Positions 1 through 60,712 of a stretch of DNA of 64,000 nucleotides are shown in pieces (the stretch's first letter is position 1; each line of letters opens with the position of its first letter). Origin of the DNA: Chiloscyllium plagiosum (lineage: Eukaryota). The stretch spans positions 39,165,143 through 39,229,142 of the forward strand of contig NC_057718.1 in assembly GCF_004010195.1 (NCBI RefSeq). The letters run 5' to 3'. Below the pieces are notes generated by a model. That model had not been told where the DNA came from. It searched no databases and worked only from the letters and a program-made list of their open reading frames with translations. The translations under genes were made by a program, and so were the position numbers.

Positions 1-960
1 ATGGGATTAACCGGGATGTGATGCCCCTCCAAGGTGAACAGCATTTTGCCATTCCATAACCTGTCTAATAATGAATTATCAAAGTACTGGAGGATGACTG
101 GCACTTAGCGAACAATGGAGTTGATTGTGCAGTCTTTTAAATCTTACCTATTTATATCAGTAAGGAGTCAATTACTTTAGAAGCGAGGGGAAGAGCAGAT
201 AATCAGCAAAAATCAGAAAGCATTGTAGTGATGTTTTGTGTAAATTTAAGTACAGAACTACAGTACTGTCCTATTTTCATAGAACCATAGAATCCCTACA
301 GTGTTGAAGCAGACTATTCGACCCTTCGAGTCCATACTAACCATCTGCTTTCCCTACGTTGTTTGTATTATTGAAGAAACTTGATTTTAATTATTAAAAG
401 TACATTTAATGCAATGATACTCCTAACAACACAATAGTTGTGCCATTTTCTCTCACTCAGGTTGGGCTTAAGTTTTTTAAATAATTAAAACATTGTTGCT
501 AATTAATCACTTATTTACCTTATAGTTTAAGTAAAAAAAGATCATGCATTTTCTCTATAATTAACATACTCCTCTGAACATTGTAAATTTTAAAATCAAT
601 GACACTTTTCCTTCTGTTTCTATACATAGCTTCACTGTAAAGGCAATGTAAATTAGATAATAATTATATGATGCAAGGAATTCTCCTGGATCAATTGTTG
701 TTGAGACATCATAGTGACTGTCCTCATATTGTTCATTATCAAGTCAGTTCAAGTATCTCCAAGGATTCAGCTAATTTTATGAAATCGATTGCTTCACTGT
801 TTTTCTGATGTGGTTAATCCTGTCTATCAAAAGGAAACAGGAAAATCCTCACCATTAGAGAAACAATATGCAATTGAAACTGTGACTATAGATGCCAAGA
901 GTCAAGAAAGCTAATGTTATTTTGTCCAATAAAGTGCTGTTTACCACATTTGTAATCTAA

Positions 961-7653: not shown

Positions 7654-9681
7654 CCTTGCCACTCCTAAATATTAACAAATATGTGTTCCCAAGGCTTCAA
7701 ATGAATAACTCTCTCATAGAATGGCAAGGGAATGGCAAAAGAACACCAATATGCCTTGGCTGTTAGGCAGAGCCATCCACAGCAGTTCTACAGAATCACT
7801 GCCATCTTGCTGAGTCCACTAATCGCTTTCTTAATCACTCTGTCTACCTGTGACAAAATTAAGCCCCAGGTCTCTCTCTATTTGACAACACTACCCAGTA
7901 TAATGGTATAAGTCTGTAGAAATGACTGCATTTTGTGAAGTGCAAATGTACTTTATAAATAAAAAATGAAGTCCCTGAATAAATGCAGCATTTTTCGATG
8001 TTCTTTTTCCAATAAGGATAAACAAATTAATTTGCTATGTACCGAACATATGTAAAACCTCAACCTTTGTTGTGCAATTATCTTTTAACATCCATATCAT
8101 TGTTTAGATAAAAATACTTGAAATCTCAGCTATGGACAAACATTGCTAGAACTATAGATAAACTGATATTCAAAAAAGAAAATTAGGTTACTATATTGGT
8201 TTACATCTGGCATTTAAGTCCAGCTAAAACACTAACCTATTTATCTAATGTGAGGTGTTCATTTTTAGCTTTTTCAGTTATAAGCAGCACTCAGCGATTA
8301 GAGTCTTTCTGAAAGAATACTGTGGTCATGGAAAGCAACAAACATTAACTCTACTGAAACAGGCTACTATTTACAGCTAATACGCAGAAATTGTTGGAAA
8401 TATTCAACTGGTAAGGCTCTGACACTTAAGAGAAAAGCAAAGTAGTGTGAATGGGCCTGAATGATGTGGGCAATGGCAGGTCAGTTGGTAAAATATAGCG
8501 AGATGAGATCCTCAACTGTCTAATTTTCCACTCAAGCTTTTAACAGCAAGACAGGAATCTCACTCGAAAGCGAAGTGAGGACTATTTGCATGCACTTACA
8601 CTTCACTGTTATCTAATCTCACCTCATTTATGTGCAATTTACTATTCTCCCACGTGTTGGAAAGAAACTAGACTGCAACAATTCCCAACACTTTTCTGGG
8701 CCTTCATTTCCTAACATCTCAGAACTTGGGTAGCCACCAACTGTAATGTTAAAGAGATTGCCATTGGAAAAACTGCCTTACTACATCCTCATGGCACATC
8801 TCCAACTCACTTTGAAAGGTGTTGTTGCCACTCCAAGGTACAGTATGAAAATGGCAAACTATTATTAAGTGCGTTGGACATATCTATGAAGATGTGGTGA
8901 ATCCATGACAAAGTCAATGTCAACCTCCATTCCCTTAGTGCTTATTCAGTTTGTGCTTACTTGGATGCTCCCAGCATCTTTGTCTTGACTTTTTACTCTT
9001 TGCCAACTCATTCAAAACTTACAACCTCACAGAACTTCCGTCTGTGCCTTTCAGCAAAGACACAAAGCCAGGTAGCTTACCTTCCACTGTTAACTTACCA
9101 CTGCCAATGTGCTTACATCAATATTTGGATAGACTTCAAAAATGCAGGAATTTGATTAAAATATTCAAACAGGAGTCAACTGCTACCAGGTTACACTATT
9201 GCATCCCCTGGTCATCCCTTGTCAATCAGTGTTGACACTGCCACTTCCTCAACAGATGCAAATTACAAGCAATATAGTAGCCGTATTTAAAAAGATCAAT
9301 AGTTACATCAAGTGAAAGTTGTAATTGGGACTGTACTCAACTTTTTTCATGTTTTTTTCTTTAAGATTCTTTTAATTCATTTTTTTTGCTCTGCAGAGCA
9401 ATGTCAATAAACTTAAATGGCATTAGAATTTGTTAAATGGGAATGATGCAGGCAATTTTGAAAAGGAGGTGAACAGTGCCTGATGAGAGGCAATCTAAAT
9501 CCCAGAGACATGGGCCAGATTTACATGAAGTTAGGAAGAATCTGTGGACCCTTAAAAATGGCAAGATGGATAGAGATGTGGAAGTTCTGTCCTCAGTTCT
9601 GAGAGATCCCATTTTTTGGGGGCAGGAGGGAGAGAATTGCATCATACTGACTGGAACCTGAAATCAGGAAGGCCATTTGAA

Positions 9682-9897
9682 TCAAGCAAGAATAGAAATT
9701 CCTGAAGGAACTCAGCAGGTCTGCCAACATCTGTGGAGAGAAAACAGACTTACTGTTTCAAAAAAGGGTCACTGGATTTGAAACGTTAATTTTGTTTTCT
9801 CTCCACAGATGTTGCCAGACCTGCTGAGTTTCTCCAGTAATTCCTATATTTATTTGTTTTAGATCATCAGCACCTACAGATCTTTATTTTGTTTTCG
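9682..9897 (+). mobile_element. Penelope-derived fold-back element (family B) with a degenerate hammerhead motif
   Basis: Inverted arms AACTCAGCAGGTCTGCCAACATCTGTGGAGAGAAAACA / TGTTTTCTCTCCACAGATGTTGCCAGACCTGCTGAGTT. Centre GGGTCACTGGATTTGAAACGTT. TSD GGCCATTTGAA at 9671-9681 and 9898-9908. Confidence 0.8.
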
Positions 9898-10479
9898 GGC
9901 CATTTGAAATATGTGCTGAGCTCAAATCTCATTTCGGTCTTAACATGCTCTGTGAAAGTCATAAATTTGATAGGGTAAACTTAAACACAGTTGAAGGCTG
10001 TTAAACTCTTTATAAGGATCATCATCTTAAGTTTTAAACATCCCCAACCCTTTAAATATGGAAAAATGGCAGAAACTGCGAGGTAAACCTAAACAATACA
10101 CTGTGCTGGATGGCTTTGATTAACAGGCCATCTGCCTTAGGCTAGGAAAGAAATATTACCATCCCTTCCTGCGGTTACAATAGAGTTTTTTGATCACATT
10201 TTCCATTAGCTGGTATTACAGCTGGGGTCATTAGGACTTGAAAAGGTTTCATAAGCTAAAAAACAGTTATCTTAGCATTGGTGGTGGTGGGGGTTGGGGG
10301 TGACTGCTGAGTTCACAGTTGAAATAAGCTATTAAAGGATTATCCATATTTTAAGTGGTTACTGAATAGGGCTTGTTTATATAACAGATTGAATAGCCCA
10401 AGGGATTCAGAATCTTTGACAGGATGTGATAATGGGAATTTTTCAGTATAAATTGTGAATGACTGAGTCCTGCATTCCA

Positions 10480-14610: not shown

Positions 14611-14876
14611 GCAGACACACAGACATCAGTGGCACTTCATGTGAAATTCGAATGGACAGCAGGGTGAACAATGAGGGAGGAAGAGACAGAAAGAGCAGCG
14701 GGAAGACTCATGGTCAGGCAGGCCCAGGTGCACATCCTCAGGAGTCTCTCTCACACACACACAAAAACATACAGATCTTGACTAGTGGCAGGAAACTTAT
14801 GCCAACACATGGCAGAGTTCTCTGAGGCAGTGTGGGGTCGTGGACAGAGAATGCTAGGGGGTATCCATTGTAAATA

Positions 14877-15050
14877 TGATGTGAAGCTGGAAAAGCACAG
14901 CAGGTCGGACAGAATCCGGGGAGCAGGAACGTCAACGTTTCGGGCTGAAACCCTTCCTGCTCCTCGGATACTGTTTGACCTGCTATGCTTTTCTAGCTTC
15001 ACATCTATTGACTCTGGCTTCCAGCATCTGCAGTCCTTACTGTCTCTAAA
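14877..15050 (+). mobile_element. Penelope-derived fold-back element (family A variant)
   Basis: Inverted arms GATGTGAAGCTGGAAAAGCACAGCAGGTC / GACCTGCTATGCTTTTCTAGCTTCACATC, then the tail CCAGCATCTGCAGTCCTTACT. The minus-strand centre GAAGGGTTTCAGCCCGAAACGTTG corresponds to hammerhead stem II, GAAA and stem III. Confidence 0.8.
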
Positions 15051-15282
15051 GTCTACCCATAGTGTGTGCACCGTTCCACCTCAGGATGTTGAGCTCGTGA
15101 TGTCCTTCATGCAAGATAGACTGGGATTACACTGACCCAAGCTGTTCCCTCCAGGTCCAGAACTTCAGTTCTGAGGAAGAATCTCTTCAGACTTGCAAAT
15201 ACAGCTAGGCCTGCTGAGTTTCTCTAGCATTTGTTTCAGATTTACAGCATCCACAGTATACACAGTAATGCACTAACTAAGG

Positions 15283-28992: not shown

Positions 28993-29759
28993 AACATATT
29001 TGAATTGATATATATTTCAGGGTAAACCCCATTAGGTGTATAGTTCTCTAAGTGGCAGCAGTTAAATGACTTTTTCATGTATGAGTTCAAATATTGAGAT
29101 CCAATATGTTATATTACAGCTGAGCTCTGGCCAATGTCCCTTACTATTATCTAGCGAGGGCCACGAAGTAGTAATATAGAACAGAAATCATTTGCCTCAA
29201 AAGCAGACAGGACAGAAGACAAACTGTAGTACCAATGCTGCTGTCATGGTTCAGATCAGCTCACTCAATGGACACCAAAGATTGCACTGGAAATCTTTTG
29301 GACTATATAGCACAGTTAATTTGACACCCAGAGAGTTATGCTTCTAGAGAAATGAATGCTTATCACTGAGGGTTCCAGTTCAAAGAAATTGAGGAACCAA
29401 GGTTTTGAGCCAGTATGATAATAACCATTCTTACTATTAAATGTCGCAGAGTCAATAATGACAGGGGTCCATATACTTATTCATTACTCATATTGGGTGC
29501 TTCCAGAAAATGCAACCCTCGGGGAGAGGCTAACTACAGTTCCCCTTTAACAACATAACCATTTTCTATCCAGTGAAGTTAACTCCCTTGGGCTGTTTCT
29601 CCTCATAAACGTATTAACACTTAAAACTCAAAGACTGGTGGAATGAGTTTAGGATGAAGGAACTGGTTTATTAGGTTAATGGTCTTTCTGGTACCAGCAA
29701 ATGATTTTGTAGTGGGACATGAGTCTATGTTCAAATTGAGTCCACTGCAATATCCCAAT

Positions 29760-31091
29760 GGATAAAGTGAGGACTGCAGATGCTGGAGATCAGAGTCAAA
29801 AAGTGTGGCATTGGAAAAGCACAGCAGGTCAGGCAGCATCTGAGGAGCAGGAGAGTCAACATTTTAGGCATAAGCCCTTCATCAGGAAGGTGGAGGTGGG
29901 AAGGGGGCTGAGAGATAAATAGGAGGGCGGGATTGGGGTGGGGATGAGGTAGCTGGGAAGGGCGATGGATAGATGCAGGTGGGAGGTGAAGGTGATAGGT
30001 TGGAGAGGAGGGTAGAGCTGATAGGTGGGAAAGAAGGTGACAGGTAGGACAGTTCAAGTGGGCAGTTCCGAGTTGGATAGTTGGACCTTGAATGAGGTGG
30101 GGCAAGGGGAGATGAGGAAACCGGTGAAGTTGACATTGATGCCGTGTGGTTGGAGGGTCCCAAGCGGAAAATGAGGCGTTCTTCCTCCAGGCATCAGGTA
30201 CCTTGGATTTGGCGGTGGAGGAGGCCAAGGAATTGCATGTCCTTGGCGGAGTGGGAGCGGGAGTTGAAGTGGTTGGCCACAGGGCAGTGGAGTTGTTAGG
30301 TGCGTGTCCCAGAGATGTCCCCTGAAACATTCCATGAGAGACTATATTGACAGCAATGGACACAGTAAATGAGGTGTTTGGATGCGCAGGAAAATCTCTG
30401 CCGGATATGGAAGGATCCTTTGGGGTCTTGGACGGAGGTGACAGGGTGGTGTTGGCACAGGTTTTACACCTCTTGCAGTGGTAAGCAAAAATGCCGGGAG
30501 TGGAGGGCTGTTTGCTGGGTGACATGGACCTAACAAGGGAATCATGGAGGGAATGGTCTCTGCAGAATGCTGATAGATGTGGGGAGGGATAACAAGTCTC
30601 TGGTGGTGGAGTCTGATTATAGGTGGCAGAAATGGCAGAGGATAATGCACTCCCCCTCCCAGTCTGCCAAGGACATGCAAGTCCTGGACATCCTCCACCG
30701 CCAAATCCAAGCCACCCGACGCCTGGAGGAAGAATGCCTCATTTTCTGTCTTGGGACCCATCAATGTCGACTTCACCAGTTTCCTCATCTCTCCTCCACC
30801 CACCTCATCCCAGATGAACCCTCCAACTCAACACCACCCTCTTGAACTGTCCTACCTGCCCATCTTTCTTCCCACCTACCAGTTCCACCCTCCCCTCAGA
30901 CCTATCCCCATCAACCCCCACCTGTTCTAGCTATTGCCTTCCCGGCTACCTCACCCTCACCCTCCTATTTATCTCTCAGCCCCCTTCCCTCCCATCACAT
31001 TCCTGATGAAGGGCTTATGCCCGAAACGTCGATTCTCCTGCTCCTCGGATGCTGCCTGACCTGCTGTGCTTTTCTAGTGTCATACGTTTTG
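29760..31091. mobile_element. Penelope-like insertion with inverted structure: minus 3' part (29760-~30645) joined to an inverted plus copy (~30646-31091)
   Basis: Both arms carry RRLEEE.LIF and the terminal repeat. Perfect 16-bp TSD ACTGCAATATCCCAAT at 29744-29759 and 31092-31107. Confidence 0.9.
30998..31036 (+). ncRNA. Minimal type-I hammerhead ribozyme motif with an intact core
   Basis: CTGATGA (31003-31009), extra A, GGGC-TTAT-GCCC (stem II), GAAA, then C-GTC with the predicted cleavage after 31030. Stem III is the palindromic ACGT and stem I is weak. Confidence 0.8.
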
Positions 31092-32130
31092 ACTGCAATA
31101 TCCCAATATTGACCTCAGTATCAGGGGAGGAACTTGAAGGAGGACTCTGTGAGGCATCAGTCAGCATCTCAGCAGAAATCAATTCAAGATGACAAATTAG
31201 TCTGCAAATCCACCGAGCGCAGCGGCTGCTAGAGTTTACTGGTGCAATAACATGTCAGAAACATAAAAGGCTAACCTTTTACACATTATAGGCCAACAGC
31301 TGTTAAAAGCAGCTTATAAACAGACTCATGACAATGCTGGCATCAGAACACATTAACTGGCACAGCTCACTGACCCATGGGTCTGTAATATGCCTATTCG
31401 TTAGCCCTCATATTGCCTGGCAACTGTTACACGTGTGTTATTCACCTTTCAAGACTCAGGAGCCCCAAAGGGGGCAGGTAACTGCCTGATTGTCATTCAA
31501 TCTTGTTGAAGCAAATGGAAATATCTGCAGTGGGGTTGTCAACAACTTTATGACCCATTCTGGGGCAACTATAGTGGCATTAAATTCAGCTCCATTACCC
31601 TGGAACAGTGGACCACTGAAGCTCTGCTGGGAATTGGAATGATATGGTTAGTGTGCTCCCACACAATATATTGTCCATTAAAATTAATATGCATTCCAGG
31701 CACACAAGCTTTGCTTCATGTTCATTAATTCTGAAATCCGACCGTGATCTGTACTTGTTTCTTTCCTCATGCTCTGCGATGTTCTTAAACTGCTTGCTAC
31801 CATCCATCTCACGGGAATTCTTTTTGTGAACTCTTCTTGGATACTTGTGTGAGATAAGGAAAGCTCAAATCCCAGAGGATTATATTAAGTTCCACTGGGT
31901 TATATCAAAAGCATATAAAAATGATTATTACTACATGGAGGTAGAAAGGATTTGCATTCCACTGAGTATTCTCTTTTAGCTTTGGTAGTAAGAAACATAT
32001 CGAGATCCATTAAGATCAAGCAACATCAAACAGAAATTTGTTTTCCTTTGGAAAATAACAAATAATCTCTCCCGCACTCCTGCATTCTGTCTATGCCAAT
32101 CAACTAAGCAATTTGCTCATTCAAATCAAT

Positions 32131-40140: not shown

Positions 40141-42010
40141 AGCATTTTACCTAAGGTACCCAGATCTTATCCTCACTATTATAGCATATGGTTCAGAGAA
40201 TGACATTGCACAGCAAGAAGCTCTCCGGTCCATGTTTCTTATAGCTTTGGAAGACCTAATCAATCAATCTCTTCCTTCTTTGTACAGTTGTCCTGCAATG
40301 TTGTCTGTATTCAAATATTTACTCAATTCCCTTTTGAAAGTTTTTTTTGAACCTGCTTCCAGTCCATTCCAGATAACAAGTCAGGGTGTGGAACAGAGTC
40401 GCAACATTCACTTCTCTTTTGACTCTTTTGCCAATTATCTTCAAATCTCTGTCATCTGAATAACAAACCACTTGTACTGTCTTTAAACAGTTAATTCTTA
40501 CTCATCAAAAATTATTATCCATTTAACCTACCTTTAAACTTCTCTGCTCAAAATGGACCAACCAATTATAATTTTTAACACATAAATGAAGCTATTTATA
40601 CTGGTTTAGTTTTAGTAAGCCTTCTCTACATCCTCTCCAAAAGCTTGTTCTCCTTCCCAAAATGTGGTGCCTTGACAGGGTTTAAACCCAATCGATGATT
40701 TCTAATGGTGTGGCCTACCATTCTTACTTTTGTACTCTGTGTCTCTATTTACAAATCCATGTTTTTTTGACAGGATTATCAATCTGTCCAGCCAACAAAG
40801 ATTAATGCATATGAATCTCATTCTTCCTGAAATTATTTTTAGTGGTTATCCTATTAATACATTATTGCATCCATATAAGGCCAGAATTCCAGAACCTTGG
40901 AAAATCACTATTTTAACTGAAACAATTATTTAACACATCTTACTGTATAATTTTAACTTATTTCCAATATCCTGTTGTGTCTTTTTGAGATTTTGCAAAA
41001 AATAAGATTGAAACAGACTGGAATAACTCCTTCCTTTCCTAATGGATTTGTGGTAGAGATAAATCCAGGGCAATTTTCACCTCAGTCATTAACAGTTTAC
41101 CTTTCCTGAATAAATATCATCTATACCTTTTGGTCTTGAGTTTTTTATTCCCACTCAAAGCCTTTAACTGAAATGCACATGGGTCCTAGAAATACAATGC
41201 AAGTGTTAATGCAGATTGTTTTGGAAAATATTTTGAGGTACAAAAGATATCCTCCCTATAGATTTTTCATTTTTTTTCTAATGAAATAATTTCAGAAATT
41301 ACTGAGGCTTTACTGGATGAGGGATTAAGCACGAGTACTCTGTGGATGCACAGTAGGACAGCCATCAAAACTGCAGTTTCCCCAGTGGAACCATTTTTCT
41401 GAATGCATACACTGACCCGTGGAACAATACGTCGGTAAACTGGCCGCTCTTCTGTGATTGATCCAGGAATGGAAACAGAATTTCTGGATCAAATTACCAG
41501 GATTGTACGCCACTGCGGATGTGTACTTCTTTACAGATGAACTTTTTAAAATTTATATTATAAAATGATATAACAAAGAAGAGACTATTCAGGTCAACAA
41601 ACTTTAAAGAGTGTTTATCTTTCATCTTCGAAAGAGCTATCTGATTAGTTCCCCTTCCCTACTTCAAAGTCTTGTAAAGTACTTTTTTCCCCATCAAGTA
41701 TTTGTACTGTTCCCTTCAAACAGTTACTATTTCTTGTATCCTCACCACTCTTCCAGCCAGTGCAATCTTAATCATAAAATCTTGCTCTCTACAAAATAAA
41801 TTCCTCTCTCATCTCTGGTTCTTTTGCCAATTGCCTTAAATCTGTGTCCTCTGGTTACAGGCCTTTCTGCCACCAAAACAGTTTATTTTTATTTTCACTC
41901 TTACAAGCACCTGTACGTTTGAAAATCTCAATCAAATTTTCCTTATCATCCTTTACTCAAAGGAAAACGATGTTAACTTCTCCAGTCTCTGCATCTAATT
42001 GAAATCCCTC

Positions 42011-42115
42011 AAACAAACAAAAAAACAAATTGCTAGAAAAACTCAGCAGGTCTGGCAGCATCTGAGCAGAGAAAATAGAGTGAACGTTTGAGTCCAGTGA
42101 CCCTTGTTCAGAAGC
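42011..42115 (-). mobile_element. Penelope family-B terminal fragment with a degenerate hammerhead
   Basis: Minus strand CTGAACAAGGGTCACTGGACTCAAACGTTCACTC..GATGCTGCCAGACCTGCTGAGTTTTTC. Confidence 0.7.
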
Positions 42116-43633
42116 AGCTGAATTCTTCACACGTGAACTGAGGGCTAATGTCACTCATCACAATTTCAGGCAAGTCATAATGCCTGATATGGTCTTTCAG
42201 ATTTCCACCAGTCTCCCACCAGTATCTGTTGTAAGTCAGATGGTACACTTCCCAGTAGTAAGAATAGTAGTCTATGGTGACAAGGTAATCAGTTGCTGTG
42301 AGAGTGAAGAGGTCACGTCCAGCTTCGTCTATGGCCTCTCTGGGATGTCATGTGTCATCAACGACTTTTTAAGCTTGCTCAGCTTGGGAGTTAGAGTTCT
42401 TAGATTTCATTGCTTATGGTTGACGATTGCCAGCAAACGTTTATCTCGCCTTCCTCAAACGTGATTCAATTTGTAGGTGGCTTGCACAGATGCAAGAATT
42501 TCTTCTCTCATTTCCCCAGAAAGAACTACACTACTCGCTTTGACCAACAGACTTTGAGTTAACAATCTGCCATAGTCTTAATTAATGGCAGAACAGGCTC
42601 GAAGGGCCAAATGGCCTACTCCCACACCTATTTTAATTTTTTAATATTTCTAACATTATATATCAATTGAGGAAGAGTACCAGGTCATTTCCCTCATTTA
42701 TGAATATTTTCATCAACATCTACTTCAAAGAAACAAGTGACAGCCCAGTCAAGTGGCAGGGTGTTTGAGTGGTACTCCAGTTTCCTCTTACAATCCAAAG
42801 ATGTACAGATTAGGTGGATTAGCCATGGGAAATGCAGGGTGATAGGAATATGTTGGGGGGGGGGGGGGAGATCTGGGTGGGATGCACTTCAGAAGATTAG
42901 TGTGGACTCAATGGGCCAAATGGCCTGCTTCCACACTGTAGAGATTCTATGATTCTATGAAACTGCCATCTTGCGTTGTCAATCCATCTCAGTATACACA
43001 ATACCCCTTTTTGTATTTATCCACTCAGGCATGGGTGTCGCTAGCTGGGTCAGCAATTATTGCCTATCCCTAGTTGCCCTCAAGAAGGTGGTGGTGAGCT
43101 GCCTTCTTGAACCACTGCTGTCCATGTGTTGTAGGTAGACCCACAATGCCATTAGGGCAGGAGGCCACTAAAACAGGGTGCTTTTGGGCCATCTTTTCAT
43201 CACTGCTTGCAACAGGTGGAGAATTGTATCTTATTGCTGGATAGTTTGGTTGATTCAAGCAAGGTGCGAGATTCATCTGCTAGATACAATGTTTCTGCTG
43301 AGTTGATGACTTCCAGATCATGTTGAGCAGCTGCTTCAATTGGATCTGAAAGATGTCACATTCTGTTTTTATCACTTTTATCTTCTTTATTGGGAGTGCT
43401 GCTCTTATGTCACAGAAAAATATCTGCTTTCTTTACTTGCACATCACATCCAGATGATGTGTCTGTAACTGGAGTAACATCCTCTGCTAACTCTTTTGAG
43501 CAAAGAGTAGCAGCTTGAGAAAAAAAATGCTTTGACCAGACTTATGTTTGGTTCGGCTGTCACTTGTTTCTTTGAAGTAGATGTTGATGAAAATGTTCAG
43601 AAATAAGGGAAATGACCTAGTGCTCTTTTTCAA
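42116..43633 (-). mobile_element. Gypsy/Ty3 LTR-retrotransposon pol remnant (RNase H to integrase), with younger insertions at ~42570-43170
   Basis: RNase H end QSIF.KLLLFAQKS*QRMLLQLQTHHLDV. Integrase region LMTHDIPERP, DLFTLTATDYLVTIDYYSYYWEV and LPEIVMSDISPQFTCEEF. Confidence 0.8.
42760..42960 (+). mobile_element. HE1-related SINE 3' part
   Basis: TTTCCTC..TCCAAAGATGTACAGATTAGGTGGATTAGCCATG and a (TTCTATGA)n tail. Confidence 0.8.
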
Positions 43634-43644
43634 TCTTAAGACTG

Positions 43645-46215
43645 TTTGGTCTTTGCTTATATCCTTTGATCCCTTTAGCCCCACATGGTTAATTAAACAT
43701 CTTCTTGAAATCATACAATGTTTTGGCTTTGACTGTTTTCTGTGATAGCAAATTCCACAGGCTTACCACTCTCTGGGTGAAGAAATCTCTCCTCATCTCA
43801 GCCCTAATTGATTTATCCAATGTCCTTAGACATGACCTTTGTTATTGGGAACATCCTTCCTGCACCTACCTTGCCAATTGGAACTCCAGTGAATACAATG
43901 CTAATCGATTCAACCTCTCCTCATTATTGACTCCCAACATACCAGGAATCAGTCTGGTAAACCATCACTGCACTCCCTCGAGAACAAGAACATCCCTCCT
44001 CAGATAAGGAGACAAAAACTGCACACTACATTCCAGGTCTGGTCTGTATAACTACAGTAAGTCATCCCTGTTCCTGTACTCGAATCCTCTCTTGCTACAA
44101 AGCCAACATACCATTTGGTTTCTTTACTACCTGTTGCACCTGCATGCTTTACTTCAGTGATTGATGGATGAGGACACCCAGGTCTCCTTGCACATTCCCC
44201 TCTCTCAATGTATAACTATTCAAATAATAATCTGATTGCCTGCTTTTGTTACCAAGGTGTATAACCTCATATTTGTTCACATTACATTCCGTCCGCCATG
44301 CATTTGCCCACTCATTCAGCCTGTGCAACGCACTGAAGCATCTCTGCATCTTCTCACAGCTCTTCTTCCCACTCAGCTTTGAATCATCTGCAAATTTGGA
44401 GACATTACATTTAGTTCCCACATCTAAATCACAAATATATTGTGAATAAATGAAGTTCTAGCACTGAGTTCTAGTGCGGTACCCCACTTATCATTGTCTT
44501 TCACAAAAAAACTCAGTTATTCCTACTCTTTGTTTTCTGTCTGCCAACCAGTTTGCTATCCATCTCAATGCAGTATCCTTATTCCCATGTGCTTTAACTT
44601 TACATATTAAACTCTTATGTGGGATTTTGTTGAAGGCCTTCTGACAGTCCAAACAAACCACATCCACTGGCTCCCCCTCATCAGCTCTACTAGTTATACC
44701 CTCATAGATTTGTCAAGCATGACTTCCCTTTTGTAAGCCCAATTCTTCCACTGTTTCCAAGTGGTCTACTATTAACCTTTTATCATGGATTCTTGCATTT
44801 TCCACACAACCAACATCAAGATGACTGGTCTATAATTCCCAGTTTTCTCTACCTCCTTTATAAAATAGAGGGATTATGTTATCTAACCTCTGATCTGTAG
44901 GAAACATTCTAGATTCCAGAAAATCTTGGAAGATGACCACCAATGAATCCACTATTTCTAGTGGCACTTCCTTAAGTACTCTGAGATGTAGATCACTGGC
45001 TTTCTGTCCCATAAATTTCCCCAGCATCATTTTCCTACTAATACTGATTTCCTTCAGTCCCTCCCTCTCACTAAATCCAGTGTTCCCTGACATTTCTGGT
45101 ATGTTATCTGTATCCTCCTTTGTGAAGACAGAAATGAAATATGAATTTAGCTCATCAGCCATTTCTTTGTTCCACATTATAAATTCCTCTGTTTCTGACT
45201 GGAAGGGGCATACATTAGTTTTCAAGAATCTTTTTCTCATTACATCCCTTGAGAAACTTTTACAGTCAGTTCTTAAGTTTCATGCAAGATTACACTTGCA
45301 ATGTATTTTCCTTTTCTTAATTAATCCCTTTGTCCTCCTTTGCTGAATTCTAAGCTGCTCCCACTCCACAGGTCTGTTTTCTTTCTGGACAATTTATATG
45401 CAGCTTCTTTGGATGTAATGTTATCTCTAATTTACCTTGTGACACATGGTTTGGCCACCTTTCCCATTTTACTTATGCACCTGATAGGAATACAAATTGT
45501 TGCAGTTAACCCATGCACTTTTTGAATGTTTGCCATTGCCTTTTCATTATCATCCCTTTATTTTATGCTCCCCAACCGATGATAGCCAACTTGTGCCTCA
45601 TACCATAATAGCTTCCTCTGTTTAGATTCTGAACTTTAAATCACAGATTCAGCTAGATCACTCTCCATCTTGATAAAGAATTCTATCACAGTACAGTCAC
45701 TCTTCTCCAAGAGGCTTCACTAAATTGCAAGTATTCTTTTCACATTACACTATAGTCTGGGATGGCCTATTCTCTAATTGATTCTTCAATGTATTGGCCC
45801 AGAAAACCATCCCGTGTACACTCCAGGAATTCCTTCTCCACAGTATTGTTGCTGATTTGATTCGCCCAATCTATAGACAGATTAAAGTCACCCATAATTT
45901 CTGATGTTCCTTCACTGCATGCATCACTAATTTTCTGTTCAATGCCATTCCCAACATCGTCCATCATCAGTCTGGGGAGTATGTACAACCCTCAATAATA
46001 TTTTTTGCTCCTTGGTGTTTCATAGCTCTATACAGATTCTATATTGTTGGAGCTAAAATCCTTCCTCACTATTGCATTAATTTCCTCTTTGAATACAATG
46101 CAACTCCATCACCTTTTCCATTTTCCTTGTCCTTCCTAAATGCTGAACACCACCAGATATTCAGTCCCCATCCTTGATCACTCAGCAGTCAAGTCTTTGT
46201 AATCCCAGCTGTATC
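43645..46215 (-). mobile_element. Older CR1 LINE ORF2 fragment (~2.6 kb)
   Basis: IMGDFNLSIDW, KEMADELNSYFISVFT, VLKEVPLEIVDSL and VSKFADDSKL motifs. Confidence 0.9.
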
Positions 46216-46378
46216 ACATTTGTTTTGATTTATTTATGCATTCATTATATGCCAGGTTTTCCAAAAATTGATTAGGTAAGGGAGTTTGTGGTTGAGAAAA
46301 GAAAACCATTTCTTTGTTTTCTTTCAAATGTATTTGATAAGAATGACAAGTTGTCATGCCATTTTTTTTCACAACAAA

Positions 46379-46545
46379 GTCAAGAGTCTGGTGCTGGAAA
46401 AGCACAGCAGGTCAGGCAGCATCCGAGGAGCGGGAGAATCGACGTTGCTTCTCCTGCTCCTCAAATGCTGCCTGACTTGCTGTGCTTTTCCAGCACCACA
46501 CTCTCGATTCTGATCTCCAGCATTTGCAGCCCTCACTTTCTCCTC
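46379..46545 (+). mobile_element. Penelope-derived fold-back element (family A), 167 bp
   Basis: ~60-bp inverted arms plus the CTCCAGCATTTGCAGCCCTCACTTTCTCC tail. 12-bp TSD TTTCACAACAAA at 46367-46378 and 46546-46557. Confidence 0.88.
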
Positions 46546-46581
46546 TTTCACAACAAATTCATGATAATACCAAGAATAGTG

Positions 46582-47655
46582 TAAGACCATAAGACCATAA
46601 GACATAGGAGTGGAAGTAAGGCCATTCGGCCCATCGAGTCCACTCCGCCATTCAATCATGGCTGATGCGCATTTCAGCTCCACTTACCAGCGTTCTCCCC
46701 GTAGCCCTTAATTCCTCTAGACAACAAGAATCTATCAATCTCGGCCTTCAACTGGACTTCATTGAGTTGTAGAAATGAGTTGAGTTGCTATAAATGTGTT
46801 TTGCTTATTGCTGATGTCTTTTCGAAGTGGATTGAAGCCTNNNNNNNNNNNNNNNNNNNNNNNNNNNNNNNNNNNNNNNNNNNNNNNNNNNNNNNNNNNN
46901 NNNNNNNNNNGGACCAAAACTGGACATAGTACTCCAAATGGGGCCTAACCAGAGCTTTATAAAGTCTTAGTATTACATCTCTGCTTTTATATTCCAACCC
47001 TCTTGAGATAAGAGACAACATTGCATTCGCTTTCTTAATCACGGACTCAACCTGCATGTTTACCTTTAGAGAATCCTCGACTAGCATTCCCAGATCCCTT
47101 TGTGCTTTGGCTTTATTAATTTTCTCACCATTTAGTAAGTAGTCTATGCTTTTATTCTTTTTGCCAAAGTGCAAGACCTCGCACTTGCTCACGTTAAATT
47201 CCATTAGCCATTTCCTGGACCACTCTCCCAACCTGTCTAGATCCTTCTGTAGCCTCCCCACTTCCTCAGTACTACCTGCCTGTCCACCTAACTTTGTATC
47301 ATCGGCAAACTTCGCTAGAATGCCCCCGGTTCCCTCATCCAAATCATTAATATATATTGCGAACAGCTGTGGCCCCCGCACTGAACCCTGCGGGACACCG
47401 CTCGTCACCGGCTGCCATTCTGAAAAAGAACCTTTTATCCCAACTCTCTGCCTTCTGTTAGACAGCCAATCCTCAATCCATCCCAGCAGCTCACCTCGAA
47501 CACCATGGGCCCTCACCTTGCTCAGCAGCCTCCAGTGTGGCACCTTATCAAAGGCCTTTTGAAAGTCTAGATAGACCACATCCATTGGGTTTCCCTGGTC
47601 TAACCTACTTGTTACCTCTTCAAAAAATTCCAACAGGTTTGTCAGGCATGACCCC
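46582..47655 (-). mobile_element. Young CR1 LINE fragment (RT core at 46911-47655, tail at 46582-46748), with an N gap and a foreign fragment between them
   Basis: Stop-free RT: VVYLDFQKAFDKVPH, SGVPQGSV and LAKFADDTKLGG. (CATAAGAC)n tail. Confidence 0.9.
46746..46840 (+). mobile_element. Retroviral-type integrase core fragment
   Basis: LQLDFIEL, then after a frameshift CYKCVLLIADVFSKWIEA. This is the first catalytic Asp region of an rve integrase. Confidence 0.65.
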
Positions 47656-48539
47656 CTGTACAAGACAACTAAACTATTGTATTGTGCTAATTCTAAATTG
47701 CAATTGTGCACAATGTGCCAAGCAGTTTGGAAGATTTTCCTGATTTGACATTTATAACTGTCAAAAGATACGCTGCAATTGTTCAAAAAGATCTCAGTAT
47801 CTGGCTTTAAAAATTTGTTGCTTTCCCTATTCTACAATCAAATGTGAGCTAACCCTTTTGTCAAATGTTTGAAACAAAGATTTCAAAATATTGCACTATG
47901 ATTGAACTGGCCCTTTTTATAAAAAAATTCATTCACAGGATGTGTCACTGGCTAGATCAGCATTTACTTTCAATCCTAATTGCCCTTGAGCTGACTGCTT
48001 TCTTGGCCATTTCAGGGGGTGGTTATGAGTCAACCACCTTGCTGTGCATCTGGAGTCACATATAGACCAGGTCAGGTAAGGATGGTAGGTTTCTTTCCCA
48101 ATGATACCCAACTGGGTTTTTACGACAAGTGACGTGGTTTTTACGACAAGTAATGTAATTCCAGATGTTTAATGGAGTTACATGTCACCATCTGCCATTA
48201 TTTAATAATGATTAGATTAGTTCACAATAAACTAAGATGCTGACACACACAGGATCCTGATTTAACTTTATGCCTACTGATTAGTGTGTGCAGGAAGAGA
48301 TCCAAAGAAGGCACGGCTAAGAAAATTTGTGTAGGGGCCAGGATAGCAGTGGTGTGGTCAACAGTTTAGTTATAATCCACAGTAGTAAATTATCTGCTAA
48401 AGTCGTGATTATATATCTTTATGCTTTGATTTTGAAGGCAGCTGTTTATGTAAGGTCCTGCAAATCAATGTGTCTTTTCAGAGTTTCAAACCTACTTTTA
48501 AAGAAGTCTGCACCAGAACCCTTACATCGTTCTGTACCT

Positions 48540-50409: not shown

Positions 50410-53400
50410 CTGGGTAATCCAAGATGGAAGACTGGAAAAATTTCTGTCTGTAACAGGTTGCTCCTGTTTGAGGTATTTTAGGTGTTGGAGATGATTTCCT
50501 TGAATTCCAGAAGCAGCAATTATTGTTTTACATCCTGTTGCAATTGTTTTGGAACTTTGAATAAAAGTCAAAACAACGGCACTTTTAAAAGGGAGTAACA
50601 CAGACAAAGGCAGCAAGCACATGGTCTGTAAGGGAGAGGCAGAAAGAAACCCACAATGCTAACTGACACAGCAGTGAATTTGTGCAGTTACTGCCTTTGC
50701 TGTTTGAATTCATGTATCGCTGGACATCGGAGTGCGTCTTGGAAAACTTAAACAGCAAAATTCACAACTGATCTTGGAGGAACCTGTTTGGGAGAGGTCA
50801 CAACTCAGAAACAGATAAGTAAATAGTTTTAAGTATAGCCTTGCTGTAAATCTACAGTTCTTTCTTGATTATATGTTTTCATTGGGATTTGTCTTTTGAA
50901 TAAATTTAAAAATATAAGCCGTAAGTATTAAGTTAGCCTGGAGCAGCATTTTGTCAAGCAATAAGACAGTGCTATTTTCTGGGTCTGTAGACTGGAAGGA
51001 GCAAAATGGCCTTTAGTAGAGTGATATGCTCTTCTTGTTGGATATAGGAGTTTTGGGAGAGCATAAGGGTTACTGAGATTTTATCTGCAATAAATGTCGT
51101 TGGTCGCAAATCCTGTCATATCGAATGGATCAATTGAAGCAACAGTTAGAGGAAATAAGGAATTTACAAGAGCTAGGGGGTGTGTTGGATGGCAGTTATA
51201 GGAAGGGAGAAAAGCCACAGGAGCAGTCAGGTAGTTGGGTTAACTCCAAGAAAGGTAGGAGAGGTAGGCAGGTAGTACAGGAGTCTTCTGTGGCTATCCC
51301 CATTTCAAACATTTGGAAAATGTAGGGGGTGATGGACTTTCGGGGGAATGTAGCACAAACATCTGAGTTTCTGGTATCAAGACAGGCACTAATTTAATGA
51401 GGGGTACATTGGGTTCCAAGCGATCAATTATGTTAGGGGACTCTCTAGTCAGCGGCACAGACAAACATTTCTGTGGCCAGCAGCGAAAAATAAGAATGGT
51501 TTGTTGTCTCCCTGGTGCCAGGATCAAGGATGTCTCAGGGAGGGTGTGGAATACTCTCAAAGGGGAGAGGGGCCAGCTGGAGGTTGTTGTACACATTGGT
51601 AAAGTAAGACATAGGAAGGGGAAAGGATGAGATTCTGAAGGGAGAATATAGAAAGTCAGGCAGGAATTTAAAAAGGAGGTAGATTAGATCTAGTCTATCC
51701 TTTTCCATCACCATTTAAAAAGTATTAGAATTATGGTCACTGGCCCCAAAGTGCTCCCCCACAGACACCTTAGTCATCTACTCTGCCTTATTTCCCAAGA
51801 GTAGGTCAAGGTTTGCACCTTCTCTAGTAGGTACATCCATATACAGACTCAGAAAATCTTCTTGTACACACTTAACAAATTCCTCTCCATCTAAACCCTT
51901 AACACTATGGCAGTCCCAGTCTATGTTTGGAAAGCTAAAATCCCCTACCATAATCACCTTATTATTCTTACAGATAACTGAAATCTCCTTACACATTTAT
52001 TTCTCAATTTTCCTCTGACTATTAGGGGGTCTATAATACCATAATTATGTTAGGGGACTCTCTAGTCAGTGGCACAGACAAACATTTCTGTGGCCAGCAG
52101 CGAAAAATAAGAATGGTTTGTTGTCTCCCTGGTGCCAGGATCAAGGATGTCTCAGGGAGGGTGTGGAATATTCTCAAAGGGGAGAGGGGCCAGCAGGAGG
52201 TTGTTGTACACATTGGTAAAGTAAGACATAGGAAGGGGAAAGGATGAGATTCTGAAGGGAGAATATAGAATATAGTGAGTGTGCCTGTTCCCTCTATCTA
52301 AGTATGCGTGTCTATACAGGTTACCCAGCTGTAAGCGTGCCTGTTCCCTCTCTCTATGTGTGAGTGTCTATAAGGGTACCCAGCTGTGAGATACTAAAGA
52401 AAGAGATCAATCTGAGACTGGGACAGTTGAGAAAAGAAGCAAGCCAATCAGTCAGGGCAGGCAGGAACAAAGCTAAGAACAAGGTAGGACTGATAAATTA
52501 AACTGTATTTGTTTCAATGCAAGAGGCCTAACAGGGAAGGCAGATGAACTCAGGGCATGGTTAGAAACATGGGACTGGGATATCATAGCAAATACAGAAA
52601 CATGGCTCAAGGATGGACAGGACTGTCAGCTTAATGTTCCAGGATACAAATGTTACAGAAAGGGTAGAAAGGGAGGCAAGAGAGGAGGGGGAATAGCATT
52701 TTTAATAAGGGATAGCATTATAGCTGAAGTAACAAAGAGGATTGATAAAGGCAGAGCAGTAGATGCGATCTATATGGACTTCAGTAAAGCTTTCAACAAG
52801 GTTCCCCATGGGAGACTGATTAGCAAGGTTACATCACATGGAATACAGGGAGAACTAGCCATTTGGATACAGAACTGGCTTGAAGGTAGAAGACAGAGGG
52901 TGGTGGTGGAGGGTTGTTTTTCAGATTGGAGGCCTGTGACCAGTGGAGTGCCATAAAGATCGATGCTGGGTCCACTACATTTCATCATTTATATAAATGA
53001 TTTGGAAATGAACATAGGAGGTATAGTTAATAAGTTTGCAGATGACAACAAAATTGGAGGTGTAGTGGACAGTGAAGAAGGTTACCTCAGAATACAATGG
53101 GATTTTGATCAGATGGGCCAATGGGCTGAGAAGTGACAAATGGAGGTTAATTTAGATAAATGCAGGGTGCTGCATTTTGGGAAAGCAAATCTTAGCAGGA
53201 CTTATACACATAATGGTAAGGTTCTAGGAAGTGTTGCTGAACAAAGAGACCTTTGAGTGCAGGTTCATTCCTCCTTGAAAGTGGAGTCGCAAGTAGGTAG
53301 GATAGTGAACAAGGTGTATGATATGCTTTCCTTTGTTGGTCAGAGTATTGAGTACAGGAGTTGGGAGGTCATGTTGCGGCTGTACAGGACATTGGTAGGC

Positions 53401-57247: not shown

Positions 57248-60200
57248 CAGTGCGGACTTGTGCTGGTCAGCAAGTGGGCACAGTGCGGACTCACGGTGGT
57301 CAGCAAGTAGGTACAGTGCGGACACATGGTGGTCAGCAAGTAGGCACAGTGCGGACTTGTGCTGGTCAGCAAGTGGGCACAGTGCGGACTCACGGTAGTC
57401 TGCAAGTAGGCACAGTGCAGACTCATGGTGGTCAGTTAGTAGGCACAGTGCGGACACATGGTGGTCAGTAAGTAGGCACAGTGCAGACTCATGGTGGTCA
57501 GTTAGTAGGCACAGTGCGGACACATGGTGGTCAGTAAGTAGGCACAGTGCAGACTCGTGGTGGTCAGCAAGTAGGCACAGTGCAGGCGCATGGTGGTCAG
57601 CAAGTAGGCACAGTGCGGACGTGGGCTGGTCAACAAATAGGCACAGTGTGGACACATGGTGGTCAGCAAGAAGGCACAGTGCAGATTCATGGTGGTCAGT
57701 AAGTAGGCACAGTGCGGGCTCATGGTGGTCAGTAAGAAGGCACAGTGCAGACTCATGGTGGTCAGCAAGTAGGCACAGTGAGGACTCATGGTAGACAGCA
57801 AATAGGCACAGTGCGGACACATGGACATTAGCAAGTAGGCACAGTGCAGACTCATGGTGTTCAGCAAGTAGGCACAGTGCAGACTCATGGTGGCCAGCAA
57901 GTAGGCACAGTGCAGACACATGGTCAGCAAGTAGGCACAGCGCAGACTCATGGTGGTCAGTAAGTAGGCACAGAGCGGACACATGGTGGTCAGCAAGTAG
58001 ACACAGTGCGGGCTCATGGCAGTCGGCAAGTAGGCACAGTGCAGACTCATTGTGGTCAGCAGGTAGGCACAGTGCGGACATATGGTGGTCAGAAAGTAGG
58101 CACAGTGCGGACTCATGGTGGTCAGCAAGTAGGCACAGTACGGGCTCATGGTGGTCAGTAAGTAGGCACAGTACGGGCTCGTTGTGGTCAGTAAGTAGGC
58201 ACAGTGCAGACCTATGGTGGTCAGCAAGTAGGCACAGTGCAGACTCATGGCAGTCAGCTAGTAGGCACAGTGCGGACATATGGTGGTCAACAAGTAGGCA
58301 CAGTGCGGACTCATGGTGGTCAGCAAGTAGGCACAGTACAGACTCATAGCAGTCAGCAAGTAGGCACAGTGCAGACTCATGGTGGTCGGCAGGTAGGCAC
58401 AGTGCAGACTCATGGTGGTCAGCAAGTAGGCACAGTGTGGAAAAATGATGGTCAGCAAGTAGGCACAGTGCGGACTTTAGCTGGCCAACAAATGGGCACA
58501 GTGTGGACAAATGGTGGTCAGCAAGTAGGCACAGTGTGGACAAATGGTGGTTAGCAAGTAGGCACAGTGCAGACTCATGGTGGTCAGCAAGTAGGCACAG
58601 TGCAGACTCATAGTGGTCAACAAGTAGGCACAGTACGGGCTCGTTGTGGTCAGCAAGTAGGCATAGTGCAGACTCATGGTGGTCAGCAAGTAGGCACAGT
58701 GCGGACACATGGTGGTCAGCAAGTAGGCACAGTGCAGTCTCATGGTAGTCAGCAAGTAGGCACAGGGCAGACCCATGCTGGCCAGCAAGTAGGAACAGTG
58801 CAGACTTGCGCTGGTCAACAAATAGGCACAGTGCAGACTCATGGCAGTCGGCAAGTTGGCACAGTGCAAGCTCATGGTGATTAGCAAGTAGGCACAGTGC
58901 GGACTCGTGGTGGTCAGCAAGTAGGCATAGTGCGGACTCCTGGTGGTCAGCAAGTAGGCACAGTGCAGACTCATGGTGAGCAGCAAGTAAGCACAGTGCA
59001 GTCTCATGGTAGTCAGCAAGTGGGTACAGTGCAGACTCATGCTGGTCAGCAAGTAGGCACATGCGGACTTGCGCTGGTCAACAAATAGGCACAGCACAGA
59101 CTCATGGCAGTCGGCAAGTTGGCACAGTGCAGACTCATGGTGATTAGGAAATTGGCACAGTGTGGACTCGTGGTGGTCAGCAAGTAGGCACAGTGCAGAC
59201 TCATGGTGGTCAGCAAGTAGGCACAGTTGGATTCATGGGGATCAGCAAGCAGGCACAGTGTGGGCTCATGGTGATCAGCAAGTAGGCACAGTGCAGACTC
59301 GTGGTGGTCAACAAATAGGCACAGTGCGGGCACATGGTGGTCAGCAAGTAGGCACAGTGCGGACTTGTGCTGGTCAACAAATAGGCACAGTGCAGACTCA
59401 TAGCAGTCGGCAAGTAGGCACAGTGCGGACTCATGGTGGTCAGCAAGTAGGCACAGTGCAGACTCATAGTGGTCAGTAAGTAGGCACAGTACAGGCTCAT
59501 GGTGGTCAGCAAGTAGGCACAGTACGGGCTCATCGTGGTCAGCAAGTAGGCACAGTGCGGACACTTGGTGGTCAGTAAGTAGGCACAGTACAGGCTCATG
59601 GTGGTCAGCAAGTAGGCACAGTGCAGACTCATGGTGGTCAGCAAGCAGGCACAGTATGGGCACAATCTGGTCAGTAAGTAGGCACAGTGTGGGCTCATGG
59701 TGGTCAGCAAGTAGGCACAGTGCGGACTCATGGTGGTCAGCAAGTGGGCATAGTGCAGACTCATGGTGGTCAGCAAGTGGGCATAGTGCAGACTCATGGT
59801 GGTCAGCAAGTAGGTACAGTGCGGTCTCATGGTGGTCACCATGTAGAAACAGTGTGGACTCATGGTGGTAAGCAAGTAGGCACAGTGTGGGCTCATGGTG
59901 GTCAGCAAGTAGGCACAGTGCGGACTCATGGTGGCCAGCAAGTAGGCACGTTGCAGGCTCATGGTGGTCAGCAAGTAGGCACACTGCGGGCTCATGGTAG
60001 ACAGCAAGTCGGCACAGTGCAGACTTGCGTTGGTCAATAATAGGCACAGTGCAGACTCATGGCAGACGACAGGTAGGCACAGTGCAAACTCATGGTGAAA
60101 ATGTGTTGCTGGAAAAGCGCTGCAGGTCCGGGAGCATCCAAGGAGCAGGAGAATCGACGTTTCGGGCACGAGCCCTTCTTCGGGCTCATGCCTGAAACGT

Positions 60201-60712
60201 CGATTCTCCTGCTCCTTGGATGCTGCCTGACCTGCTGCACTTTTCCAGCAACACATTTTCAGCTCTGATCTCCGGGATCTGCAGTCCTCACTTTCTCCTA
60301 GCAAACCCATGGTGGTCAGCAAGTAGGCACAATGCGGACTCATGGTGGTCAGCAAGTAGGCACAATGCGGTCTCATGGCGGTCAGCAAGTAGGCACAGTG
60401 CAGGCTCATGGCGGTCAGCAAGTAGACACAGTGCGGGCTCATGGTGGTCAGCAAGTAGGCACAATGCGGTCTCATGGTGGTCAGCAAGTAGGCACAGTGT
60501 GGGTTCATGGCGGTCAGCAAGTAAACACAATGCAGACTCATGGTGGTCAGCAAGTCAGCACAGTGCGGATTCATGGTGGTCAGCAAGTAGAGACAATGCG
60601 GACTCATGGTGGTCAGCAAGTAGATACAGTGCGAATTCATGGTGGTCAGCAAGTAGGCACAGTGCGGGCACATGGCAGTCAGCAGGTAGGCACAGTGTGG
60701 TGTCATGGCAGT
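57248..60712. repeat. 33-bp minisatellite of roughly 98 units, consensus CAGTGCRGACTCATGGTGGTCAGCAAGTAGGCA
   Basis: Direct tandem periodicity, 11-aa repeats in the ORF track, and no unique spacers. Confidence 0.97.
60098..60300 (+). mobile_element. Penelope-derived fold-back element (family A) inserted into the minisatellite
   Basis: ~75-bp inverted arms, each containing GGGC-loop-GCCY-GAAACGTC, plus a tail. TSD GCAAACTCATGGTG (60084-60097) / GCAAACCCATGGTG (60301-60314). Confidence 0.9.

What the first reader, a model, noticed from the sequence alone, without database searches (positions are those of the whole stretch)
46367..46557. Short hairpin retro-elements whose fold-back point lies inside the ribozyme
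Seen: four ~170-220-bp elements (9682-9897, 14877-15050, 46379-46545, 60098-60300) share one architecture, an antisense arm, a sense arm and an extra 3' tail. Three have clear 11-14-bp TSDs. In all four, the inversion junction lies within the ~35-nt hammerhead motif. Here it is centred on the stem-III palindrome (AATCGACGTTGCTT, two changes from the perfect AATCGACGTCGATT) next to the predicted cleavage site. Junctions differ between copies, so they are not copies of one master MITE. Inference: they arise independently during Penelope reverse transcription when the RT reaches a ribozyme-cleaved or structured RNA end and folds back or switches template. That would be a ribozyme-defined route to hairpin insertions able to give dsRNA or small RNAs.
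Basis: partly seen in the sequence, partly recalled or inferred. Interest (0 to 1): 0.72.

Follow-up and report, generated by a model that had tools for sequence, protein, structure and literature searches.

The report
Penelope hairpin stubs span uncut ribozyme
These short hairpins are real, independent insertions made of two head-to-head end pieces of a Penelope-type jumping gene, a known layout, and their seams cluster in the element's small ribozyme, likely because the copied RNA begins just in front of it rather than because the ribozyme cuts there.

Summary
Four hairpin elements exist, each with an inverted arm, a direct arm and a 37-41 nt one-sided tail; 3 of 4 have target-site duplications (TSDs). 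They are end pieces of RT + GIY-YIG Penelope-like elements (PLEs). The layout is described for PLEs, including Naiads, which lack hammerheads (PMC8557442, PMC3846280). Clustering is still real: 8 of 10 arm ends fall in the ~40-nt hammerhead zone (P≤4e-4, post hoc). The cleavage model is not supported as the general cause. Every short element carries sequence 5' of the predicted cut. In public runs, copy ends pile up 2-5 nt in front of CUGAUGA, not at the cut. Best model (inferred): two cDNAs primed from both target strands run through the uncut ribozyme to the RNA's start and are joined with loss of up to ~40 nt. A minority from cut RNA is not excluded. dsRNA and small-RNA output is untested. 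The scan found this earlier on other DNA.

The parts
46367..46378 (.). E3 left target-site duplication (12 bp)
46379..46446 (-). E3 inverted, tail-less arm: Penelope pLTR end, reaching up to +23 of the hammerhead
46443..46507 (+). E3 direct arm; starts at the shared ACGT (+24) or exactly at the first base after the predicted cut (+29, 46447); both parses fit
46508..46545 (+). E3 one-sided Penelope tail (about 38 nt)
46546..46557 (.). E3 right target-site duplication
9671..9908 (+). E1, family B: TSD 9671-9681 and 9898-9908; inverted arm 9682-9757; direct arm plus tail 9758-9897
14870..15050 (+). E2, family A (divergent subfamily): inverted arm 14870-14955; direct arm plus tail 14956-15050; 3-nt microhomology at the seam; no significant TSD
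60084..60314 (+). E4, family A: TSD 60084-60097 and 60301-60314; inverted arm 60098-60179; direct arm plus tail 60180-60300; inserted in a 33-bp minisatellite
29744..31107 (-). Fifth element, same layout: 16-bp TSD; tailed arm 29760-30648 (-); tail-less arm 30649-31091 (+); seam far upstream of the hammerhead
30999..31034 (+). Minimal hammerhead motif with intact core (CUGAUGA 31003-31009, helix II, GAAAC-GUC, predicted cut after 31030; helix I weak); used as the coordinate reference
   Evidence: motif definition from PMC4209133
16124..17686 (+). Decayed longer Penelope copy: RT remnant, GIY-YIG remnant (17041-17328), hammerhead remnant (17592-17619)
42006..42117 (-). Solo family-B stub, tail-less, beginning just in front of the hammerhead; no TSD found
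15165..15262 (+). Solo family-B stub with tail and an internally deleted hammerhead, beginning just in front of CUGA; no TSD found

Best explanation
Each element is one insertion of two head-to-head end pieces of an endonuclease-bearing Penelope-like retroelement, likely made as two short cDNAs that ran through the uncut hammerhead towards the start of the RNA, just in front of the motif, and were then joined. Shown: layout, TSDs, Penelope parentage, arm-end positions, and the genome-wide pile-up of ends at the motif's front edge. Inferred steps: (1) The GIY-YIG nuclease makes a staggered cut of 11-16 bp. (2) Both target ends prime reverse transcription at two internal sites 35-40 nt apart, about 60 and 95 nt 3' of the ribozyme cut, which gives the one-sided tail (both-strand priming and two start sites are shown in vitro for the anole element PAc, PMC11167929). 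(3) These sites also lie near the RNA's 5' end, so the cDNAs are only 70-140 nt long. (4) The two cDNA 3' ends are joined bluntly or through 1-4 nt of self-complementarity, losing 0-40 nt at insertion or by later tip deletion. The seam falls in the hammerhead because the motif fills the first ~40 nt of the template; its palindromes may pick the exact seam.
For: Sequence 5' of the cut is present in every short element., family A reference: contigs whose match stops at 30998-31001 number 1480, 1123, 787 and 557 in run X1 and 1310, 1182 and 760 in X11. At 30999-31001 their loose sequence agrees at only 0.31 and is A/T-rich, as unrelated flank would be. No position near the cut is among the six best-supported rows per run (lowest shown: 346, 376 and 105). 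Raw-read depth in X21 relative to its peak: 0.86 across the cut bin, 0.60 in the first hammerhead bin, 0.07 just upstream, 0.01-0.02 in two coding-region bins. Both solo family-B stubs begin just before CUGA. In one search, 539-720 contigs per DNA run continue through the whole 5' half of the motif. PAc nicks and extends both strands from two internal start sites, and hammerhead-dead mutants do not alter its product (PMC11167929). Naiads have the same layout without hammerheads (PMC8557442). E2 and E4 need two separate cDNAs if their seams are original.
Against: No RNA 5' end was observed: table 6 lists no start pile-up, and that library type cannot show one. The depth step is inflated because subfamilies diverge in the upstream pyrimidine tract and coding region; part of the 30998-30999 pile-up is other subfamilies' upstream sequence (visible in X21). 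None of the 8 short arms in the window clearly reaches -4; most stop 5-40 nt inside, so substantial loss must be assumed. All 9 opposite-strand joints shown pair a front-edge end with an end 2-17 nt 3' of the cut, which a cut-RNA contribution also predicts. E3's direct arm can be parsed as starting exactly at the cut. Counting was capped in X1 and X11, and only 15 of 430 joints and 18 of 1252 loose-end rows were shown.
Confidence: 0.55

Rival explanations
1. Ribozyme cleavage defines the seam: the RT runs off the 5'-OH end of cut RNA and folds back or switches template.
For: E3's direct arm fits a start at +29 with one mismatch, and E2's starts 5-8 nt after the cut. The second end of all 9 opposite-strand joints shown lies at cut+2..+17. 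Earlier scan notes report U6 joined at this bond (e1-8159350, e1-8160647; not tested here).
Against: All 4 elements hold sequence upstream of the cut. 0 of 9 and 0 of 5 opposite-strand joints shown have both ends at the cut. There is no loose-end peak or depth step at the cut. Minimal hammerheads cleave poorly in vitro (PMC4209133), and cleavage is dispensable for PAc (PMC11167929).
Confidence: 0.1
2. The RT starts at the 3' pLTR of a long RNA and stalls or switches template at the folded, possibly protein-bound hammerhead, so structure rather than the RNA start sets the ends.
For: Ends are spread across the motif. The zone offers about twice as many ≥3-nt self-complementary pairings as neighbouring sequence (5.9% vs 2.8%). 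PAc's hammerhead folds with protein help (PMC11167929). Long arms such as the fifth element show that the RT can start at a 3' pLTR.
Against: A roadblock should stop the RT at the 3' base of the structure, but the main pile-up is after the whole motif has been copied. The isolated pLTR ends fold no better than shuffles (z -0.83 to +1.0). A twofold excess of microhomology is small.
Confidence: 0.2
3. All copies were inserted as near-symmetric hairpins with two whole hammerheads (by self-priming or twin priming), and today's seams are later deletions of the unstable palindrome tip between short repeats. This overlaps the best model and differs only in timing.
For: The least diverged element (E4) reaches furthest 5' when both arms are considered (n=4, weak). 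E3's seam is what a deletion between the two ACGT copies would leave. The best-supported joint (30999/31036) spells a 12-bp palindrome on the reference, and a 5-nt direct repeat flanks the core. Central deletion of long palindromes is recalled knowledge; one search found no directly relevant paper.
Against: No ancestral allele was seen. Arms of 70-140 bp are short for strong instability (inference). It does not explain solo stubs.
Confidence: 0.12
4. They are copies of a pre-formed master hairpin (a MITE or non-autonomous passenger).
For: Some joints recur in several contigs (17 in X1 and 9 in X11 for the commonest).
Against: Four different seams from different subfamilies; TSDs of 11, 12, 14 and 16 bp; at least 430 distinct joints listed, with the commonest in 17 of 142,474 contigs laid (counting capped).
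Confidence: 0.03

Closest known systems
Complex insertions of endonuclease-positive Penelope-like elements: inverted 5'-truncated copy + pLTR + one-sided 30-40 bp tail + TSD, with palindromes at the inverted junction (PMC8557442 Fig. 2 legend and Structural Characteristics passages; PMC3846280 passages; PMC2377424 passages)
   Same: Head-to-head arms, one-sided tail of about 35-40 nt, variable TSD, palindromic or microhomologous seam, RT + GIY-YIG parent.
   Different: Here both arms are cut down to 70-140 nt with no ORF, such stubs are the majority (10 of 13 arms in the window), and ends cluster at or in the hammerhead. The passages read do not report seam position relative to the hammerhead. 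PMC3846280 favours self-priming on an antisense template.
PAc (Poseidon of Anolis carolinensis) in vitro mechanism (PMC11167929, parts 1-2 of 4 read)
   Same: Hammerhead near the pLTR/ORF junction, two internal RT start sites that define the tail, both target strands cut and extended, cleavage not needed.
   Different: That work does not describe hairpin stubs or how the two cDNAs are joined. Start sites lie 111-118 nt into the ORF with the cut at +26; here the two 3' ends lie about 60 and 95 nt after the cut.
Minimal type I hammerheads of metazoan PLEs (PMC4209133, parts 1-2 of 4 read)
   Same: CUGANGA core, extra nucleotide before helix II, palindromic ACGU in place of helix III; the paper notes pairs of motifs 100-700 bp apart on opposite strands.
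   Different: The four short elements carry only broken motifs; the intact core is in the longer copy at 31003-31030. Activity was not tested.
Non-LTR retrozymes as non-autonomous PLE derivatives (10.64898/2026.07.22.740005, passages read)
   Same: Short, non-coding, hammerhead-related, derived from the pLTR.
   Different: Retrozymes are tandem head-to-tail units; these are single head-to-head insertions with broken ribozymes.
LINE-1 5' inversions by twin priming (recalled; one search listed three papers holding the term, none read)
   Same: Both target strands prime on the element's RNA, and the cDNAs are joined by microhomology.
   Different: L1 inversions give non-overlapping segments and no hairpin; here both cDNAs copy the same stretch.

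Membership tests
EN+ Penelope-like element insertions | Parent encodes PLE-type RT followed by C-terminal GIY-YIG endonuclease | tested here: met
   For family A: the copy at 16124-17686 has RVT_1 (E 0.0023, below the cut-off) then GIY-YIG (25.4 bits, cut-off 22.6, stops read as X); its homologues P0001 and P0002 carry RT, and P0001 also GIY-YIG. It continues into the same end sequence as the stubs. No coding parent of family B is in the window.
EN+ Penelope-like element insertions | Inverted 5'-truncated copy adjacent at the 5' end | tested here: met
   5 of 8 insertions counted in the window
EN+ Penelope-like element insertions | 30-40 bp tail on one end only | tested here: met
   37-41 nt in 5 of 5 inverted elements
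EN+ Penelope-like element insertions | Short, variable TSD | tested here: met
   11, 12, 14 and 16 bp in 4 of 5 inverted elements; none found for E2 or the 3 solo copies
EN+ Penelope-like element insertions | Clade assignment (Poseidon vs Neptune) by RT phylogeny | not tested
   No tree was built
Minimal PLE hammerhead ribozyme | CUGANGA - helix II - GAAA core with palindromic 15.1-16.1 and NUH | tested here: met
   Intact at 31003-31030; broken in all four short elements. Rfam gave no hammerhead hit among 10 matches at E≤1.
Minimal PLE hammerhead ribozyme | Helix I closing the motif | tested here: inconclusive
   Only 3 of 4 pairs in the reference copy, by eye; not formed in the predicted fold
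Minimal PLE hammerhead ribozyme | Self-cleavage | not testable with these tools
   No start pile-up in one poly(A) single-cell run, which cannot show 5' ends
MITE | Fixed TSD length and one master sequence with terminal inverted repeats | tested here: not met
   TSDs 11-16 bp; seams and subfamilies differ; the tail lies outside the inverted repeat
Non-LTR retrozyme | Tandem head-to-tail units with intact hammerheads | tested here: not met
   Single head-to-head insertions with broken motifs
microRNA precursor families | Rfam gathering score | tested here: not met
   All miRNA-type hits are far below threshold

The most novel reading that the evidence does not exclude
A sizeable class of these hairpins is a two-template record: one cDNA copied from intact RNA to its start at the hammerhead's front edge, the other from ribozyme-cut RNA, joined through the helix-I or seam palindrome. 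The genome would then hold a countable fossil record of in-vivo cleavage by minimal hammerheads and of twin-primed, dimeric Penelope integration. The commonest detectable joints in both families (family A -3 with cut+6; family B -1 with cut+8) have this form.
Probability: 0.2. Interest if true: 0.62.

Novelty: new member of a known kind. Interest (0 to 1): 0.33.

Why it matters
How PLEs build their inverted repeats and tails, and what their hammerheads do, are stated as open questions in the papers read (PMC8557442, PMC11167929). About four such hairpins per 64 kb give a very large natural data set of aborted integrations. Their end positions predict where the RNA starts, show that most templates were uncut, and constrain self-priming versus twin priming. 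The layout itself is ordinary for PLEs. I found no paper mapping seams against the hammerhead or treating shark copies (open-licence library only). Dense intronic or UTR hairpins could feed dsRNA pathways, but nothing here shows that.

Tried and rejected
No whole genome is held, so no assembly-wide census was possible. Metagenome pattern scan: 17 of 17 loci were short chance matches, longest 32 nt. Rfam gave only sub-threshold hairpin families. Run search: no RNA holder listed; this says nothing on expression. X22 laid 0 reads, so it was no test. Editing check: places with A>G / T>C were 23 / 44 in RNA run X21 against 19 / 39 and 18 / 40 in DNA runs. That is no clear excess, but it was measured on a non-hairpin reference and is weak. 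X21 reads lie on both strands about equally (1299 vs 1676 at peak), as read-through background would. PDB sequence search found 0 hits; the protein atlas gave only scores below 0.8. My own idea of a helix-I register for the seam was noted before the second lay and is not established. In one search the best-supported opposite-strand joint (42075/42113; 3, 3 and 2 contigs in three runs) fell in the predicted range, but the other 4 of 5 shown did not, 6 joints were not shown, and both coordinates coincide with places where the reference departs from its family. All 14 opposite-strand joints shown have arm offsets of 33-53 nt, while the four window seams have offsets of about -18, +28, +3 and +8, so the tables likely show a biased subset (inference). 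On the family A reference, 8 of 9 joints had ≤1 nt microhomology. Family B depth is uninformative because the reference is diverged. A place look-up near the finding returned nothing, and a sequence look-up returned two unrelated bacterial notes. Supplements of the papers were not opened; those of PMC11167929 (Fig. S2) and PMC4209133 may bear on copy ends and shark motifs.

Full report
Setting. The window is repeat-rich (42% GC). Proteins 80-85% identical to a decayed ORF at 16479-17069 are annotated from Chiloscyllium punctatum (3 of 4 hits; the fourth 59%), so the host is inferred to be a shark. No assembly is held.

Observation. The four elements exist. Each is an inverted arm, a direct arm and a 38-41 nt tail on the direct arm only. 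E3 folds into one long hairpin (z -14.6). TSDs are E1 11 bp, E3 12 bp and E4 14 bp with one mismatch; E2 has none above chance; 1 of 60 random pairs scored as high. E4's duplication is confirmed by minisatellite phase. E2-E4 belong to family A and E1 to family B. A profile search built from the copies found 9 family-A and 4 family-B arms in the window, forming 8 insertions. Five are inverted pairs and three are solo. The fifth inverted pair (29760-31091) has a perfect 16-bp TSD, a 37-nt tail and arm ends at -353 and about -763, so the layout does not require a seam in the hammerhead.

Identity. The family-A end sequence continues upstream, in the copy at 16124-17686, into a GIY-YIG remnant (Pfam 25.4 bits, above cut-off, stops as X) and an RT remnant (weak). 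A minimal hammerhead core is intact at 31003-31030 and fits the description in PMC4209133 (parts 1-2 of 4 read). Rfam does not detect it. The inverted copy, one-sided 30-40 bp tail, TSD and junction palindromes are described for EN+ PLEs (PMC8557442 passages; PMC3846280 passages; PMC2377424 passages). Naiads share the layout without canonical hammerheads.

Independence. All four seams differ. Over 55 shared columns, each short family-A arm's closest relative is its partner (0.84, 0.91, 0.93), and each pair shares 2-3 private letters. So each insertion drew both arms from one source, or the arms were later homogenised. A master MITE is rejected.

Clustering. Eight of ten arm ends of the inverted elements lie between -4 and +36. 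Under geometric truncation with means of 30-1000 nt, P is at most 4e-4 (zone chosen after seeing the data). The clustering is real.

Cause. A cleaved RNA lacks everything 5' of +29. Yet E1's arms keep about 8 and 27 such nucleotides, E2's tail-less arm 23, and E4's arms 26-29 and 17-20. E3 keeps 1-6 in at least one arm. Only E2's direct arm (cut+5..8) and one parse of E3's (exactly +29) fit a cut template.

Public runs, family A. These were laid on 30649-31110 (142,474 and 112,628 contigs from two DNA runs, 3,403 raw RNA reads, and one run with none). The best-supported 5' loose ends are at 30998-31001 (-4..-1). At 30999-31001 they continue into unrelated A/T-rich sequence (agreement 0.31). 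No cut-site position appears among the rows shown (18 of 1252). Raw-read depth is 0.86 of peak across the cut, 0.60 in the first hammerhead bin and 0.07 just upstream. Caveats: subfamily divergence upstream inflates the step, and counting was capped. The 9 opposite-strand joints shown (of 430 joints of all kinds) pair -5..+2 with +30..+45. The commonest (-3 with +34; 17 and 9 contigs, 2 raw reads) spells a 12-bp palindrome on the reference. Three of four listed junction inserts before -3 end in G. That fits a cap-derived G (lead from e1-9960851) or a family letter; I cannot tell which.

Public runs, family B. Many copies run through the entire motif. The best-supported joint matched a prediction written beforehand, but 4 of 5 shown did not, and reference divergence confounds it. 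Because all 14 displayed joints have offsets of 33 nt or more while no window seam does, I treat these tables as a biased subset.

Mechanism. PAc cuts and extends both target strands, starts internally at two sites that define the tail, is predicted to be a dimer, and does not need ribozyme cleavage (PMC11167929, parts 1-2 of 4). In E2 and E4 the tail-less arm reaches further 5' than the tailed arm, which single-cDNA snap-back cannot give unless the tip was trimmed later. The best model (0.55) is therefore two target-primed cDNAs, started close to the RNA's 5' end, copying through the uncut motif and joined head to head with some loss. The RNA start at the front edge is inferred, not observed. 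I took the leads for twin priming and an RNA start from earlier scan notes and tested them in part. Rivals: structural stall or switch 0.2, later tip deletion 0.12, cleavage as general cause 0.1, master hairpin 0.03. A minority class from cut RNA stays possible.

dsRNA. The hairpins are strong in silico. No small-RNA data were available, and the one RNA run shows no clear editing excess (weak test). The claim is untested.

Verdict. A real and tidy example of a known PLE insertion layout, in miniature. The positional rule is a useful mechanistic clue that I did not find in print in the searches named, and that the scan has noted many times in this and related genomes. Interest 0.33.

Noticed in passing
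window 57100-60750: 33-bp minisatellite of about 3.6 kb (more than 85 overlapping matches), open in several frames; E4 is inserted in it in phase.
   Followed up: partly
window 29744-31107: The tail-less arm end shares 3 nt with its TSD; by eye E1, E3 and E4 also share 1-3 nt there, hinting at microhomology at the tail-less junction.
   Followed up: partly
window 2757-7696, minus strand: Fragments that look like a decayed L1/Tx1-type LINE (ORF1-like, AP endonuclease-like and RT-like pieces in the ORF list); label from recall, not tested.
   Followed up: no
window 27603-28970, 35638-36087, 44830-45279, 46580-47831, 52477-53780: Several CR1/L2-type RT fragments; one 3' end with a short tandem tail lies about 25 bp right of E3. 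Labels from recall.
   Followed up: no
window 18110-18137, minus strand: Weak hammerhead-like pattern not matched by either family profile; probably chance or an old third family.
   Followed up: partly
reference 31074 to 30998: Head-to-tail joints (5 and 7 contigs) in which a unit restarts at -4, suggesting that tandem pLTR units also begin at the hammerhead's front edge.
   Followed up: no
RNA run X21, positions 31018 and 31056: 112 and 115 reads with consistent non-element flanks: probably expressed host transcripts carrying a Penelope stub.
   Followed up: no
window 15165-15262: Solo family-B stub whose hammerhead has an internal deletion of about 20 nt.
   Followed up: partly
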